A program made the position numbers. Below are positions 33,001-36,000 of a stretch of DNA of 64,000 nucleotides, one piece after another. Origin of the DNA: Styela clava (Eukaryota). Positions within the stretch are counted from its first letter, which is position 1. Each line of letters starts with the position of its first letter. The DNA is taken from contig NC_135253.1 of assembly GCF_964204865.1 (NCBI RefSeq), positions 16,988,001-17,052,000 on the forward strand. Direction: 5' to 3'.

Positions 33001-36000
33001 ATGCAATCAGGAAAACTCACTCAAAATAATTACTATATTCTTGCTTTTCAGTTATCGTGATTCATCATTAACATGTTGCTCTTTACAATGTAATAATATA
33101 TCATTGGTGAATTAGTGAATTCTCACTGCTAATTTTTTTTTTCTGTAATTAACTTTTTTAGAAAATATCTAGATAGTTAGTTAAGTATTATTAGATTCTA
33201 TTGCTTTTATTTAAATGGAAGGAGAGTCATCTGAAATGGGTGGAACTGCGTCAAAAGGATCAGTTCCAGAGTTGAAAATACTGGTATGGAATATACAAGG
33301 TTTACTCGATGAATTCCTAACTGAACGTTCAAAAGGAGTCGTTGGAATTGTTGAAGGAAACAAGCCTGCAGTGATAATGTTACAAGAAGTAATAGAATCA
33401 ACTTATTCTTATTTTAATAAGGCTTTGAGTTCAAACTACATGGGATATTCCCCCTATGATTTAAGACAAGGATGCTCTCATTATTTCACTGCAATATTCA
33501 TCAGAAAAAAACAAATAGGTTCTACATCAGCTACAGTTACTGTGTATCCTGATTCATTACTAGGAAGAGATTTGATGGTCGTAAACGACGATTATCATGG
33601 TTATAAAATGGCTTTTATAACATCTCATTTGGAAAGTATGCCCAAAAGAATGGCTGAAAGAAAGAAGCAGCTTGCTAGTCTATATCAGACTATGATATCA
33701 CAACCGGATAATCAAACAGTAATTTATGGAGGAGACACAAATCTTGAGGATGAAGAATTCAACTCGGTAGTCAAGGATGGAAAGTTTGATCTCGATAAAG
33801 TAGCTGATGTATGGAATCTCCTGGGATCACCAGATAGTACTAAATATACCTGGAACACGGAATTGAATGACAACACTAATGAAGAAGGCCGCCACAGATT
33901 GGACAGGATATTTTTAAGACAATGTGGAAAGGAGACAACGCAGTTCTTTAAACCCACTAGCATGAAGTTTGTTGGTATGGAAAGATTGCCAAGTGGAAGA
34001 TTCATATCTGATCACTGGGGTTTAATCGTGCAATTTGCACAATAACTATAGTCAGCATATTGCCCTACAATATATTATTTTAGAAGTACAAATTTTCTTT
34101 GATAATAAAATCAGTTATCTTCAACTGGAGGTCGCCTGAACCCTTTTGGGGTTCATGAGCTCTGCATGCATAAGATGAAAAAAAAACTACTAACAAATGT
34201 GGCTTAGCTTTCTTTAAACAATTATTGGACACAACTCTATAAAACCAGACAGCACTGCAAAGCAGGATCTTGCCCATATGAACAAACATGTTTATCTGCA
34301 TCAAAAGACTATTCAGCATTTTATTGTATTTTCATAGGTTCATACCTTAAAAGTACGCTTCACACTGTTTGTACTTGAGTATATCATCTATGTACAGAGT
34401 TTCTGACATCACATCTTTTATCACCCTCCAAAGTCAAGGTCATTTCTGTGTGCAATTTTGATGAAAAAATATTGTTTCTAGTTGGACACATTACTTGTAC
34501 ATAACAGTATTGATTAATTTTATTTGAAGGGTTCTACAGCTTTTAAACAAATCCTTATCAAAATCCTTACTATTGCAATGGTTTGTAATTATAAAGTTAT
34601 TAGGAAATTCCTACTATTTATATATACACCACAAAGCTTCAATATTTATAATAAATTAAAATTTGAACTATTTTACTATGTCCCAATATCATGCTTTTTA
34701 GACTATATTTCATTTTTCATATATATATCAGCATGTTTGTTTTTTAATTCAATTGCCGTAAACTATGCCATTGTAAATTTATTCAATGCAATATTTTGTT
34801 TTAAGTTCAACTTTAACATATTTGTTCTATTTAATTCACTTTTGTAATATCAATGCAGGTGAATTGCTATAGCACTACTGCTTAAAAACATGGATGAGGC
34901 AATTGAGCAATTCCTAAGCATAACCAATACTGATTCAAGGGATATGGCTGAATATTATCTCAATGTCAGCAATGGAGATTTACAAATGGCATTGGGAATG
35001 GTTTATGAAGATGGTGGAGCTTCCAGCTCTAAGACAGAAGTCAAAAAATCTGATAATGATTGTGTTATTGTTGATGACTTAAAACCAAATATAACAGTTT
35101 TAGAGTGGAATATACAAGGTTTACTTGATGACTATTTACAAGAAAGAACAGTGGCGGTCGTGAATACTATTCGACAGTATTCTCCAACTGTGGTAATGCT
35201 ACAAGAAGTTATATTAGAGACATATCTATATATGAAAAGTGCATTAAAATCGACATATACTGGATTCTCGCCTTCAGAAATTAGTAGTCAATGTGGCCAA
35301 TATTTTACATGTATTTTCATAAATAAAAGTCTCTTCAAATCATGCACAGCAAAAGTTGTTTCATTCTCTGGATCAAGACAAGGAAGAGATATATTGATAG
35401 TTGAAGGTAAATGTCACAACCTTGATGTAGCAGTGTTGACGTCTCATCTGGAAAGTACTAAAACTGGCGAGCAAGAAAGAAAAAGACAGCTTGGTATATT
35501 GTATTCCACAATGATGCAATTTCCTTCTGTAAGCACTGTTATTTTTGGTGGTGACACCAATCTCAGAGATGCTGAGTTTACCTCTGTTGTTCACTCTGGT
35601 AAATTTGATGCTACATTGGTGAAAGATATATGGGAGATTCTTGGTTCTCCTCAAGATGTAAGATATTCATGGGATTTGCAAAATAATGACAATCAAGTTA
35701 AAGATGGAAAAGCAAGACTTCGATTTGCGAGAATGTATACTAGAGTTGAGACAAGCAAGCAACATTTCAAACCAACGGAGATGCGATTTGTTGGAATGAA
35801 GAGACTTTCATGTGGCATGTTTCCATCAGATCATTGGGGTATTTTGACCACATTTGCTGTATGAATATACCTTTACCTTGAGGTCCATGCCATCAGCAAC
35901 TATGACTTTCAGTTTTTCTGATTGATGTGTATCAGTTTCCAGGGTTTCACATTCCATGACACATTCCCAATCATGATCTTTCGCCAATATGTTTACATTT

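What the first reader, a model, noticed from the sequence alone, without database searches (positions are those of the whole stretch)
33215..35864. Tandem intronless TDP2 paralogs with complementary losses
Seen: A lacks the UBA domain, has GDTNLE and keeps RLDR. B keeps the UBA domain and GDTNLR but has RFAR (GCG codon) where the motif is normally RFDR. Both have WNIQGL. Established: canonical TDP2 has WNIDGL, GDTNLR and RFDR; the first Asp lines the metal site and the second is a conserved EEP-family residue. The core N, E, H, S, D, N, D, H residues are retained in both. Inference: a sub- or neofunctionalised pair, such as a ubiquitin-recruited attenuated form plus a free form with altered substrate contacts. 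Vertebrate TDP2 is single-copy and multi-exon, so these may be retro-derived extra copies.
Basis: partly seen in the sequence, partly recalled or inferred. Interest (0 to 1): 0.65.

Follow-up and report, generated by a model that had tools for sequence, protein, structure and literature searches.

The report
Two tandem sea-squirt TDP2 genes
Two neighbouring single-exon copies of the DNA-repair enzyme TDP2 sit in a sea-squirt genome: one is the lineage's ordinary copy, and the other is an old, faster-evolving copy that lost its ubiquitin-binding domain and changed residues that normally hold DNA.

Summary
The window is tunicate, not human: A is 96% identical to a Styela clava "TDP2-like" protein.

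The interpretation needs correcting in four places.
- WNIQGL is not special to this pair. Q occurs in 18 of 18 tunicate-type sequences.
- The tunicate norm at the RFDR position is RFER, found in 13 of 19. A-type copies carry D, and only B carries Ala.
- B is the lineage's canonical TDP2 with a UBA domain, not a retro-derived extra copy.
- A belongs to an older UBA-less paralogue clade with orthologues elsewhere. A species-level duplication is rejected at p-AU 6e-8.

A keeps all catalytic residues but has changed DNA-contact positions 241, 276 and 325. It evolves about 2.6 times faster than B, yet shows constraint.

The most likely reading is an old tandem DNA-level duplication of an already intronless gene, after which A diverged in recruitment and substrate binding. 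B's Ala may be a mild attenuation, a polymorphism or an assembly error.

The S. clava duplication is already noted in print (PMC11369425). Interest is modest.

The parts
33215..34045 (+). Gene A: a single-ORF, UBA-less TDP2 paralogue of 276 aa. It consists of the EEP catalytic domain plus a 17-residue N-terminal tail that is modelled with low confidence.
   Evidence: ORF. Pfam finds Exo_endo_phos only. 13 of 13 PDB sequence hits are TDP2, best 3e-45. AF2 model pLDDT 91.2, residues 1-3 and 8-13 below 50. Best Foldseek match is human TDP2 5ino_B, TM 0.94 by target length, rmsd 1.7 A. 96% identical to a Styela clava TDP2-like protein, P0121.
33287..33304 (+). A's motif M1, WNIQGL. It holds catalytic Asn (mouse N130) and Gln at the Mg-site position (mouse D132).
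   Evidence: Q is found in 18 of 18 tunicate-type sequences.
33731..33748 (+). A's motif M6, GDTNLE. D272 and N274 are kept; the floor Arg (mouse R276) is replaced by Glu (GAG at 33746-33748).
   Evidence: The Styela clava orthologue also has E, P0122 has T and P0005 has K.
33896..33907 (+). A's RLDR. The mouse F325 position is Leu; the mouse D326 position keeps Asp (GAC at 33902-33904).
34046..34889 (+). AT-rich spacer of 844 bp between the two genes. It contains AATAAA at 34104-34109, 59 nt after A's stop. A T-rich tract followed by AG lies at 34857-34858, 31 nt before B's ATG.
   Evidence: Read directly from the sequence. That these act as a polyadenylation signal and a (trans-)splice acceptor is inference.
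34890..35864 (+). Gene B: a single-ORF, full-length tunicate TDP2 of 324 aa (UBA, linker, EEP domain).
   Evidence: ORF. Pfam finds UBA_4 plus Exo_endo_phos. PDB best hit is TDP2 at 3.5e-48, and the C. elegans full-length chain matches B residues 4-322. AF2 pLDDT 92.1. Foldseek matches to TDP2 give TM 0.93-0.96 by target length. Aligns over its full length with Clavelina and Ciona savignyi TDP2.
34893..35024 (+). B's UBA-like domain (residues 2-45).
   Evidence: Pfam UBA_4 E 8.8e-12 and UBA_8 E 1.6e-07. Three helices at 2-12, 17-26 and 31-40 with pLDDT above 90. It is the only UBA-profile hit in the window.
35106..35123 (+). B's motif M1, WNIQGL.
35550..35567 (+). B's motif M6, GDTNLR, with the floor Arg retained.
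35721..35732 (+). B's RFAR. Ala (GCG at 35727-35729) stands where non-tunicates have Asp and 13 of 19 tunicate-type rows have Glu.
   Evidence: B's closest relative P0002 (73-75% identical) has Glu, and so does the fragment P0362.

Best explanation
The locus holds two real, head-to-tail, single-exon TDP2 genes in a Styela-like ascidian.

B is the lineage's ordinary TDP2. It has a UBA-like ubiquitin-binding module, a flexible linker and an Mg-dependent EEP phosphodiesterase domain. In other animals this enzyme removes 5'-phosphotyrosyl adducts left by abortive topoisomerase II.

A comes from an old tandem, DNA-level duplication of that already intronless gene. The duplication predates the split between this species and the sources of P0122 and P0002. 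The A lineage lost the UBA domain and evolved about 2.6 times faster. It kept every catalytic and metal-site residue that tunicate TDP2s have. It replaced three residues that hold the DNA end in mouse TDP2: cap 241 K/R to P, floor R276 to E, and nucleoside cleft F325 to L.

Inference: A is still an active phosphodiesterase. It is no longer recruited through ubiquitin, and it binds its substrate differently or more weakly. That amounts to divergence in recruitment and substrate, not decay.

The Q in WNIQGL and the Glu norm at the RFDR position are tunicate-wide background. B's Glu-to-Ala change is private to this sequence. It removes the carboxylate that, by analogy with APE1 D283-H309 (recalled), orients the catalytic His. 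If real, it should lower activity, not abolish it. It could equally be a polymorphism or an assembly error.
For: Identity and fold.

Taxon: A is 96% identical to S. clava P0121. The nearest named full-length relatives of B are Clavelina and Ciona savignyi at 42%.

Catalytic residues N130, E162, H236, S239, D272, N274, D358 and H359 are present in both proteins.

Lineage-wide states: Q132 in 18 of 18, with T212S and M214Q also tunicate-wide. E326 in 13 of 19 tunicate-type rows.

Tree:
- A starred clade (99/99) of nine rows holds the A-type rows {A, P0121, P0122, P0005} and the B-type rows {B, P0002, P0003, P0004, P0006}.
- Path length from the duplication node is about 1.05 for A and about 0.40 for B.

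The AU test rejects a clade of A + P0121 + B alone (p 5.8e-8).

Constraint on A:
- A and P0122 are identical at 67 of 85 family-conserved columns and 92 of 175 variable columns (Fisher p 4e-5).
- The 8 differences between A and S. clava P0121 all fall in variable columns (0 of 72 conserved).

dN/dS between A and B is about 0.23, with dS saturated.

A-specific changes at columns at least 85% conserved elsewhere include positions 241, 276 and 325; B has none. The roles of R241, R276, F325 and of D132/E162/D358 are as stated in the review PMC5778467, section 16 (read).

No UBA exon for A is found anywhere in the window.

The tandem layout, and the lack of poly(A) tracts or flanking repeats, come.
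Against: - No expression data, and no DNA of orthologues, could be reached. Selection is therefore inferred from proteins only.
- The A-type and B-type groupings inside the nine-row clade have only moderate support (82/69 and 80/65).
- The AU test does not reject P0005 grouping with the B-type rows (p 0.275) or a later duplication (p 0.18). The age of the duplication and a single origin of UBA loss are therefore not fixed.
- A is less conserved at family-conserved columns than B is (79% against 95%). This fits relaxed constraint as well as new function.
- Position 276 also varies in other tunicate TDP2s that keep a UBA domain (S in P0008, L in P0012; their UBA rows are). P0010 also has S and P0221 also has L, but neither shows a UBA domain. 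Loss of this Arg may matter less in this lineage.
- P0231 carries Gln at position 326, so B's Ala may also be tolerated.
- The intronless state of relatives is inferred only from full-length ORFs on contigs of 3-11 kb listed.
- The rest of this genome could not be searched for a third copy.
Confidence: 0.7

Rival explanations
1. A and B are retro-derived extra copies with complementary degenerative losses. B is a ubiquitin-recruited attenuated form and A a free form with altered contacts. A canonical multi-exon WNIDGL TDP2 sits elsewhere in the genome.
For: Both genes are intronless. A lacks the UBA domain and R276, and B lacks the 326 carboxylate. An active LINE-like element with RT and an EEP endonuclease lies 9 kb upstream, so retroposition machinery exists in this genome.
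Against: - All 18 tunicate-type sequences that cover the motif have Q. No tunicate-like WNIDGL protein appeared among the 361 stored hits.
- B is full-length and nests with other tunicate TDP2s.
- Relatives of B appear as whole ORFs on contigs of 3-11 kb. This suggests the intronless state predates the duplication.
- A head-to-tail layout 844 bp apart is what unequal crossing-over gives, not retroposition.
- No poly(A) tract or target-site duplications were found.
- The losses are not symmetrical.
Confidence: 0.08
2. A is a dying or unexpressed duplicate that is evolving neutrally or nearly so. Its odd residues are decay, not new function.
For: A has a long branch (about 1.05 against 0.40). 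It is less conserved at family-conserved columns than B (79% against 95%). The named S. clava model P0121 (sources uniref and nr) starts only at A's Met55 and so lacks the catalytic Asn. A's full 276-aa protein did not appear as a 100% hit in the protein database.
Against: - The 276-codon frame is open in 65% A+T DNA (chance 9e-10).
- All eight catalytic residues are kept.
- Orthologues P0122 (61% identical, 278 aa) and possibly P0005 are also intact and UBA-less.
- Substitutions avoid family-conserved columns (p 4e-5, and 0 of 72 against S. clava).
- The AF2 model is confident (pLDDT 91.2).
Confidence: 0.07
3. B's Ala (GCG) has no biological meaning. It is an assembly or consensus error, or a rare allele of a normal RFER gene, so B is simply a fully active canonical TDP2.
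For: It is a single-base difference from GAG. It is unique among the 40 aligned sequences, and B differs from the family at no other highly conserved column. B's nearest relatives P0002 and P0362 have Glu.
Against: Nothing speaks directly against it. P0231 shows that another tunicate-type TDP2 also lacks the carboxylate (Gln), so such changes do occur.
Confidence: 0.3

Closest known systems
Vertebrate TDP2 (TTRAP/EAPII), e.g. mouse and human TDP2 (PDB 4gz1, 5ino, 5j3p)
   Same: B has the same two-domain plan (UBA-like plus EEP). Both A and B share the fold (TM 0.93-0.96 by target length, rmsd 1.6-2.1 A). Both keep the catalytic residues N130, E162, H236, S239, D272, N274, D358 and H359.
   Different: Both carry Q at the Mg-site position D132 and QG or LG in place of M214/M215. 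Both are single-exon; that human TDP2 is multi-exon is recalled, not tested here. A has no UBA domain and differs at positions 241, 276 and 325. B has Ala at position 326.
Other tunicate TDP2s (Ciona savignyi H2ZAM5 = P0009; Clavelina lepadiformis P0007; unnamed P0002, P0003, P0006, P0008 and others)
   Same: B shares their length, UBA domain, WNIQGL, QGR and GDTNLR, and falls in their clade.
   Different: They have RFER where B has RFAR. A-type proteins lack the UBA domain, carry Asp at 326 and have lost R276.
Styela clava 'tyrosyl-DNA phosphodiesterase 2-like' (P0121), and the S. clava duplication noted in PMC11369425
   Same: P0121 is 96% identical to A over residues 55-276 and has the same GDTNLE and RLDR. 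The paper states that TDP2 duplications occur in tunicates and names Styela clava (passage read).
   Different: P0121 starts at an internal Met and lacks WNIQGL. The paper gives one sentence and no analysis of domains or residues. Its supplementary tree and table could not be seen.
Zebrafish tdp2a / tdp2b
   Same: A retained pair of TDP2 paralogues in which one copy (tdp2b) carries most of the activity and the other diverged more (PMC11369425, abstract and passages).
   Different: The paper ascribes the fish pair to the teleost whole-genome duplication and places it in duplicated gene environments (PMC11369425). Here the two copies are tandem, and the duplication is independent and lies within tunicates.
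APE1 and other EEP nucleases (Asp-His pair D283-H309)
   Same: The RF(D/E)R acidic residue is taken to match APE1 D283, which pairs with the catalytic His. D283 and H309 are listed as functionally important, and D283G as a reduced-function variant, in PMC3679070 (two passages).
   Different: The residue-to-residue match and the hydrogen bond are recalled and were not computed here. APE1 is an AP endonuclease, not a tyrosyl phosphodiesterase.

Membership tests
TDP2 (EEP-superfamily 5'-tyrosyl-DNA phosphodiesterase) | Catalytic domain matches TDP2 best, by both sequence and fold | tested here: met
   A: 13 of 13 PDB sequence hits are TDP2, best 3e-45; Foldseek top hit 5ino_B, TM 0.94 by target length. 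B: 13 of 13, best 3.5e-48; Foldseek TM 0.93-0.96 by target length. The next non-TDP2 folds have E around 1e-15.
TDP2 (EEP-superfamily 5'-tyrosyl-DNA phosphodiesterase) | Catalytic and phosphate-binding residues N130, E162, H236, S239, D272, N274, D358, H359 (mouse numbering) | tested here: met
   All eight are present in A and in B. Numbering was checked on Peromyscus P0127 (370 aa), which matched 21 of the 22 listed mouse residues.
TDP2 (EEP-superfamily 5'-tyrosyl-DNA phosphodiesterase) | Asp at Mg-site position 132 (WNIDGL) | tested here: not met
   Gln in both A and B. However, Gln occurs in 18 of 18 tunicate-type sequences and Asn in amphioxus, so this is a lineage trait and not a reason to exclude these two proteins.
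TDP2 (EEP-superfamily 5'-tyrosyl-DNA phosphodiesterase) | DNA-end contacts: cap K/R241, floor R276, cleft W307 and F325 (roles from PMC5778467, section 16) | tested here: inconclusive
   B has K241, R276, W307 and F325, so it meets the feature. A has P241, E276, W307 and L325, so three of four are not met.
TDP2 (EEP-superfamily 5'-tyrosyl-DNA phosphodiesterase) | Acidic residue at position 326 (RFDR/RFER), thought to pair with the catalytic His | tested here: inconclusive
   A has Asp (met). B has Ala (not met).
TDP2 (EEP-superfamily 5'-tyrosyl-DNA phosphodiesterase) | N-terminal UBA-like domain (metazoan architecture) | tested here: inconclusive
   B meets it (Pfam UBA_4, 8.8e-12). A does not: there is no UBA domain in the protein or anywhere in the window.
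TDP2 (EEP-superfamily 5'-tyrosyl-DNA phosphodiesterase) | Placement inside the TDP2 tree with tunicate orthologues | tested here: met
   Both fall in a starred nine-row clade (99/99) inside a 19-row tunicate-type group (93/98).
TDP2 (EEP-superfamily 5'-tyrosyl-DNA phosphodiesterase) | Mg-dependent hydrolysis of 5'-phosphotyrosyl DNA ends | not testable with these tools
   Needs recombinant protein and an assay.
Processed retrogene | Intronless copy | tested here: met
   Each gene is a single uninterrupted ORF.
Processed retrogene | Poly(A) remnant and flanking target-site duplications | tested here: not met
   None is seen in the flanks. At this level of divergence they could have eroded.
Processed retrogene | Dispersed from a multi-exon parent gene that still exists | tested here: inconclusive
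   The copies are tandem and head-to-tail, 844 bp apart, which speaks against this feature. A parent gene elsewhere in the genome could not be searched for. No WNIDGL tunicate protein appeared among the stored hits.

The most novel reading that the evidence does not exclude
The A-type proteins could be a new ascidian TDP2 subfamily that has left chromatin-based, ubiquitin-guided repair.

They have no UBA domain, and the DNA cap, floor and cleft residues are replaced. Both A (from its second Met, M8: MGGTASK, with G at -3 and +4) and its orthologue P0122 (M1: MGGRSSK) carry an N-terminal motif that fits the N-myristoylation consensus (recalled).

Such an enzyme could be a membrane-tethered or cytoplasmic phosphodiesterase acting on something other than duplex DNA ends, for example protein-linked RNA 5' ends. 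In that case the catalytic core of TDP2 would have been re-used for a new substrate.
Probability: 0.1. Interest if true: 0.6.

Novelty: new variant of a known kind. Interest (0 to 1): 0.3.

Why it matters
TDP2 decides how cells clear topoisomerase II-DNA crosslinks, and in mammals it is also the host enzyme that picornaviruses borrow to unlink VPg (recalled).

This locus offers a natural pair. One copy keeps the ubiquitin-binding module and the DNA-contact residues. The other keeps only the catalytic chemistry.

That makes a ready-made separation-of-function experiment on three questions:
- what the UBA domain, R276, K/R241 and F325 each contribute;
- whether the tunicate-wide Q at the Mg site is neutral;
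- whether the 326 carboxylate is needed.

Beyond that it is an ordinary lineage-specific gene duplication, and its existence in Styela clava is already mentioned in print.

Tried and rejected
- A hidden UBA exon for A: rejected. tblastn with B over the window found only A and B. The ORFs in the 2 kb upstream were read by eye. A TDP2-UBA HMM run against 2104 six-frame ORFs hit only B.
- A third TDP2 piece in the window: none found. The LINE's EEP endonuclease at 21193-24534 is a different EEP branch.
- Recent gene conversion between A and B: overall nucleotide identity is 54%, and the best 20-codon window reaches 70%. One 26-nt stretch at the WNIQGLLD codons matches at 25 of 26 bases. Codon-resampled controls reach that in 133 of 5000 runs, so it is only a weak hint.
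- Shared flanks or target-site duplications: none found.
- A search for short B-like fragments found one, P0362 (77 aa, 70% identical, RFER). It does not settle the polymorphism question.
- Literature on the TDP2 residue equivalent to D326: search listed 12 of 43 papers, none about TDP2. The NAR 2016 structural paper is not held.
- Searches were badly framed, and their top rows held no TDP2 term. One search (TDP2 + Ciona) found one paper, seen as a listing only. One search (TDP2 + Styela) found only PMC11369425.
- Neighbour ORF 39673-40632: no Pfam family and no usable Atlas hit.
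Full report
WHAT IS THERE

The window has about 35% G+C, contains no N and is eukaryotic. It is not human. ORF A is 96% identical to a Styela clava protein named "tyrosyl-DNA phosphodiesterase 2-like" (P0121). The nearest named full-length relatives of ORF B are the TDP2s of the ascidians Clavelina lepadiformis and Ciona savignyi, each 42% identical. No spliced model was needed or joined, because both genes are single uninterrupted ORFs.

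ORF A runs from 33215 to 34045 on the + strand (276 aa). ORF B runs from 34890 to 35864 on the + strand (324 aa). From base composition, frames this long would stay open by chance with probability 9e-10 and 2.5e-11.

Pfam sees only the Exo_endo_phos domain in A. In B it sees a UBA_4 domain at residues 2-45 plus Exo_endo_phos. A and B are 48% identical over 260 residues. In the PDB sequence search all 13 of 13 hits for each protein are TDP2 chains, with best E-values of 3e-45 and 3.5e-48.

AlphaFold models built on 40-row alignments are confident: pLDDT 91.2 for A and 92.1 for B. They superpose on human, mouse and zebrafish TDP2 with TM-scores (by target length) of 0.89-0.96 at 1.6-2.1 A. The next non-TDP2 folds have E-values around 1e-15.

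THE MOTIFS IN CONTEXT

I numbered residues on Peromyscus TDP2 (P0127, 370 aa). It carries the expected residue at 21 of the 22 mouse positions I checked; the exception, 321, is also Cys in human according to the review.

The review PMC5778467 (section 16 read whole; passages) assigns these roles:
- D132, E162 and D358 bind Mg.
- D272, N274 and R276 form the "floor" of the DNA cleft.
- H236, S239 and R241 form the "cap".
- W307, L315 and F325 form the cleft for the 5' nucleoside.

Both A and B keep N130, E162, H236, S239, D272, N274, D358 and H359.

Position 132 (WNIDGL). Gln occurs in 18 of 18 tunicate-type sequences that cover it, Asp in 20 of 21 non-tunicates, and Asn in amphioxus. Two further changes, T212S and M214Q, are also tunicate-wide. 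In a regex survey of 363 sequences (361 stored proteins plus A and B) the motif gave D 301 times and Q 21 times. These are motif hits, not proteins, and a few proteins give a second spurious hit. The Q set comprises the tunicate-type rows, A, B, their duplicates or fragments, and one long-branch protein, P0263. WNIQGL is therefore background for this lineage and not a feature of the pair.

Position 326 (RFDR). The five non-tunicate rows all have Asp. Among the 19 tunicate-type rows, 13 have Glu and 4 have Asp (A, S. clava P0121, P0122, P0005). One has Gln (P0231) and one has Ala (B). B's closest relative P0002 (73-75% identical) and the fragment P0362 both have Glu.

Position 276 (GDTNLR). Arg occurs in 11 of the 19 tunicate-type rows. 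A and P0121 have E, P0122 has T, P0005 has K, P0008 and P0010 have S, and P0012 and P0221 have L.

HOW THE TWO COPIES DIFFER

I looked in the 40-row alignment for columns that are at least 85% conserved in the other 36 sequences. A differs at nine of them:
- 241 K/R to P
- 276 R to E
- 325 F to L
- 308 D to N
- 269 F to Y
- 352 C to S
- positions 158, 209 and 219, all conservative changes

The changes at 241, 276 and 325 are shared with P0121 and P0122. B differs at no column under the same test. Position 326 escapes the test because it is split between D and E.

The "complementary losses" are therefore lopsided. A has lost the UBA domain and three residues that hold the DNA end in mouse TDP2. 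B has a single private substitution in a second-shell residue.

No UBA-coding piece for A exists in the window:
- tblastn with B found only A and B.
- A's ATG directly follows an in-frame stop.
- A TDP2-UBA HMM built from 31 rows, run against 2104 six-frame ORFs, hit only B's ORF (7e-13; next best 0.69).

HISTORY

A maximum-likelihood tree of 28 rows (LG+C20 PMSF, 312 columns) places A and B in a starred clade of nine rows (99/99) inside a 19-row tunicate-type group (93/98). Within the nine rows:
- A + P0121 + P0122 is starred (100/100), and P0005 joins them with 82/69.
- B + P0002 is starred (100/98), and joins P0003/P0004/P0006 with 80/65.

AU tests give three results:
- A clade of A + P0121 + B alone is rejected (p 5.8e-8). 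The duplication is therefore older than the split from the sources of P0122 and P0002.
- A later duplication (A, P0121, P0122, B, P0002 together) is not rejected (p 0.18).
- P0005 grouping with the B-type rows is not rejected (p 0.275).

The exact age of the duplication, and whether the UBA domain was lost once, stay open. From the duplication node the path to A is about 1.05 substitutions per site and the path to B about 0.40.

A is nevertheless constrained:
- A and P0122 agree at 67 of 85 family-conserved columns (79%) and at 92 of 175 variable ones (53%), Fisher p 4e-5.
- B and P0002 agree at 81 of 85 (95%) and 113 of 176 (64%).
- All 8 differences between A and S. clava P0121 lie in variable columns (0 of 72 conserved).

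Between A and B, pN is 0.386 and pS is 0.72. dS is saturated, so the dN/dS of about 0.23 is only a rough sign of constraint.

RETROGENES OR NOT

Four lines of evidence bear on the retrogene idea:
- Both genes are intronless, but they lie head to tail and 844 bp apart. The flanks show no poly(A) remnant or target-site repeats.
- B aligns end to end with other tunicate TDP2s.
- Several unnamed relatives are whole ORFs on contigs of 3-11 kb. This suggests, but does not prove, that the gene was already intronless before it duplicated.
- A neighbouring gene is split into at least two ORF pieces (SPOUT-type methyltransferase, 41969-42790 and 42952-43491, minus strand). The TDP2 genes are thus single-ORF where a neighbour apparently is not; that the gap is an intron is inferred.

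The best reading is a tandem DNA-level duplication of an intronless ancestral tunicate TDP2.

What I could not do:
- Search the rest of this genome or other ascidian genomes.
- As a result, a third copy, the gene structures of relatives and codon-level selection tests all remain unchecked.

MECHANISM (INFERRED)

B should work as TDP2 does elsewhere. The UBA-like domain is joined by a flexible linker (residues 46-63, pLDDT below 50) to an Mg-dependent EEP domain that hydrolyses 5'-phosphotyrosyl DNA ends.

Its Glu-to-Ala change removes the carboxylate that I take to match APE1 D283, the partner of the catalytic His309. The match and the hydrogen bond are recalled. PMC3679070 lists D283 and H309 as functionally important, and D283G as a reduced-function variant (two passages). 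I expect lower activity, not none, if the base call is right. It is one transversion away from GAG.

A should still be a phosphodiesterase. Without the UBA domain, and with P241, E276 and L325, it probably binds DNA ends differently or more weakly and is recruited differently.

WHAT IS KNOWN

PMC11369425 (abstract and passages) states that TDP2 duplications occur "in tunicates (Styela clava)" and that zebrafish has tdp2a and tdp2b. Vertebrates are therefore not uniformly single-copy, and the S. clava duplication is in print as one sentence.

It was the only paper holding both "TDP2" and "Styela" (1 of 1). "TDP2" plus "Ciona" found one paper, an APE2 review that I saw only as a listing. I found no analysis of the UBA loss or of the residue changes. 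Searches were too loosely framed to count as evidence of absence. For PMC10407441 and PMC10449949 I read only the outline and abstract; I use them for nothing beyond the point that E152 is essential.

VERDICT

This is a real gene pair of modest interest. B is an ordinary tunicate TDP2 with one odd residue. A belongs to a UBA-less, faster-evolving TDP2 paralogue clade with altered DNA-contact residues, making it a new variant of a known enzyme family. It is best seen as a natural separation-of-function pair, not as complementary degeneration of retrocopies.

Noticed in passing
window 21193-24534 (-) and 24713-25441 (-): A long intact ORF of 1114 aa carries an Exo_endo_phos endonuclease, a reverse transcriptase and a weak PHD match. 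This is a LINE-like non-LTR retrotransposon. A 243-aa ORF with no Pfam match lies just upstream on the same strand and may be its ORF1.
   Followed up: partly
window 18362-19474 (+) and 26852-27229 (+): Pieces of hAT-type transposase: DUF4371 and DUF659 in one ORF, and the hAT C-terminal dimerisation region in another.
   Followed up: no
window 30327-31157 (+): A single open frame of 277 aa with an Arf-family small-GTPase domain at residues 104-260 (E 2.3e-37). It lies 2 kb upstream of gene A on the same strand and is another apparently intronless gene.
   Followed up: no
window 41969-42790 (-) and 42952-43491 (-): A SPOUT-type 'putative RNA methyltransferase' (Pfam Methyltrn_RNA_3). Two ORF pieces cover profile positions 35-302 and 1-36, so the gene appears to have at least one intron.
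   Followed up: no
window 39673-40632 (+) and 53671-55812 (-): Two long open frames of 320 and 714 aa have no Pfam family. The 320-aa one also gave no usable hit in the protein atlas. Whether they are genes is unknown.
   Followed up: partly
window 36623-37150: A tandem array of about four units of 124-130 nt (68-93% identical) lies 0.8 kb downstream of gene B.
   Followed up: no
window 33287-33312 and 35106-35131: The codons for WNIQGLLD match at 25 of 26 bases between A and B, although the genes are only 54% identical overall. Codon-resampled controls reach this in 133 of 5000 runs. It is a weak hint of a tiny conversion tract or of codon constraint.
   Followed up: yes
window 33236-33256 (A residues 8-14); P0122 residues 1-7: A's second Met is followed by GGTASK, and the orthologue P0122 starts MGGRSSK. 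Both fit the N-myristoylation consensus (recalled). A's second ATG has G at -3 and +4, whereas the first has T at -3. P0005 has no such motif.
   Followed up: partly
window 33130-33161 and 34820-34858: T-rich tracts ending in AG lie 53 nt before A's ATG and 31 nt before B's ATG. They look like 3' splice or SL trans-splice acceptors. That ascidians use trans-splicing is recalled.
   Followed up: no
proteins P0218 (734 aa) and P0219 (624 aa): These unnamed proteins each contain two TDP2 catalytic domains of the WNLDG type. They are probably gene models that fuse tandem TDP2 duplicates in a non-tunicate lineage, so tandem TDP2 duplication is not unique to this locus.
   Followed up: partly
proteins P0121 (222 aa) and P0224 (80 aa): The S. 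clava record for the A orthologue starts at A's Met55 and so lacks the catalytic Asn motif. A separate 80-aa record covers residues 1-80 with the same variant residues. The public model of this gene looks truncated or split.
   Followed up: partly
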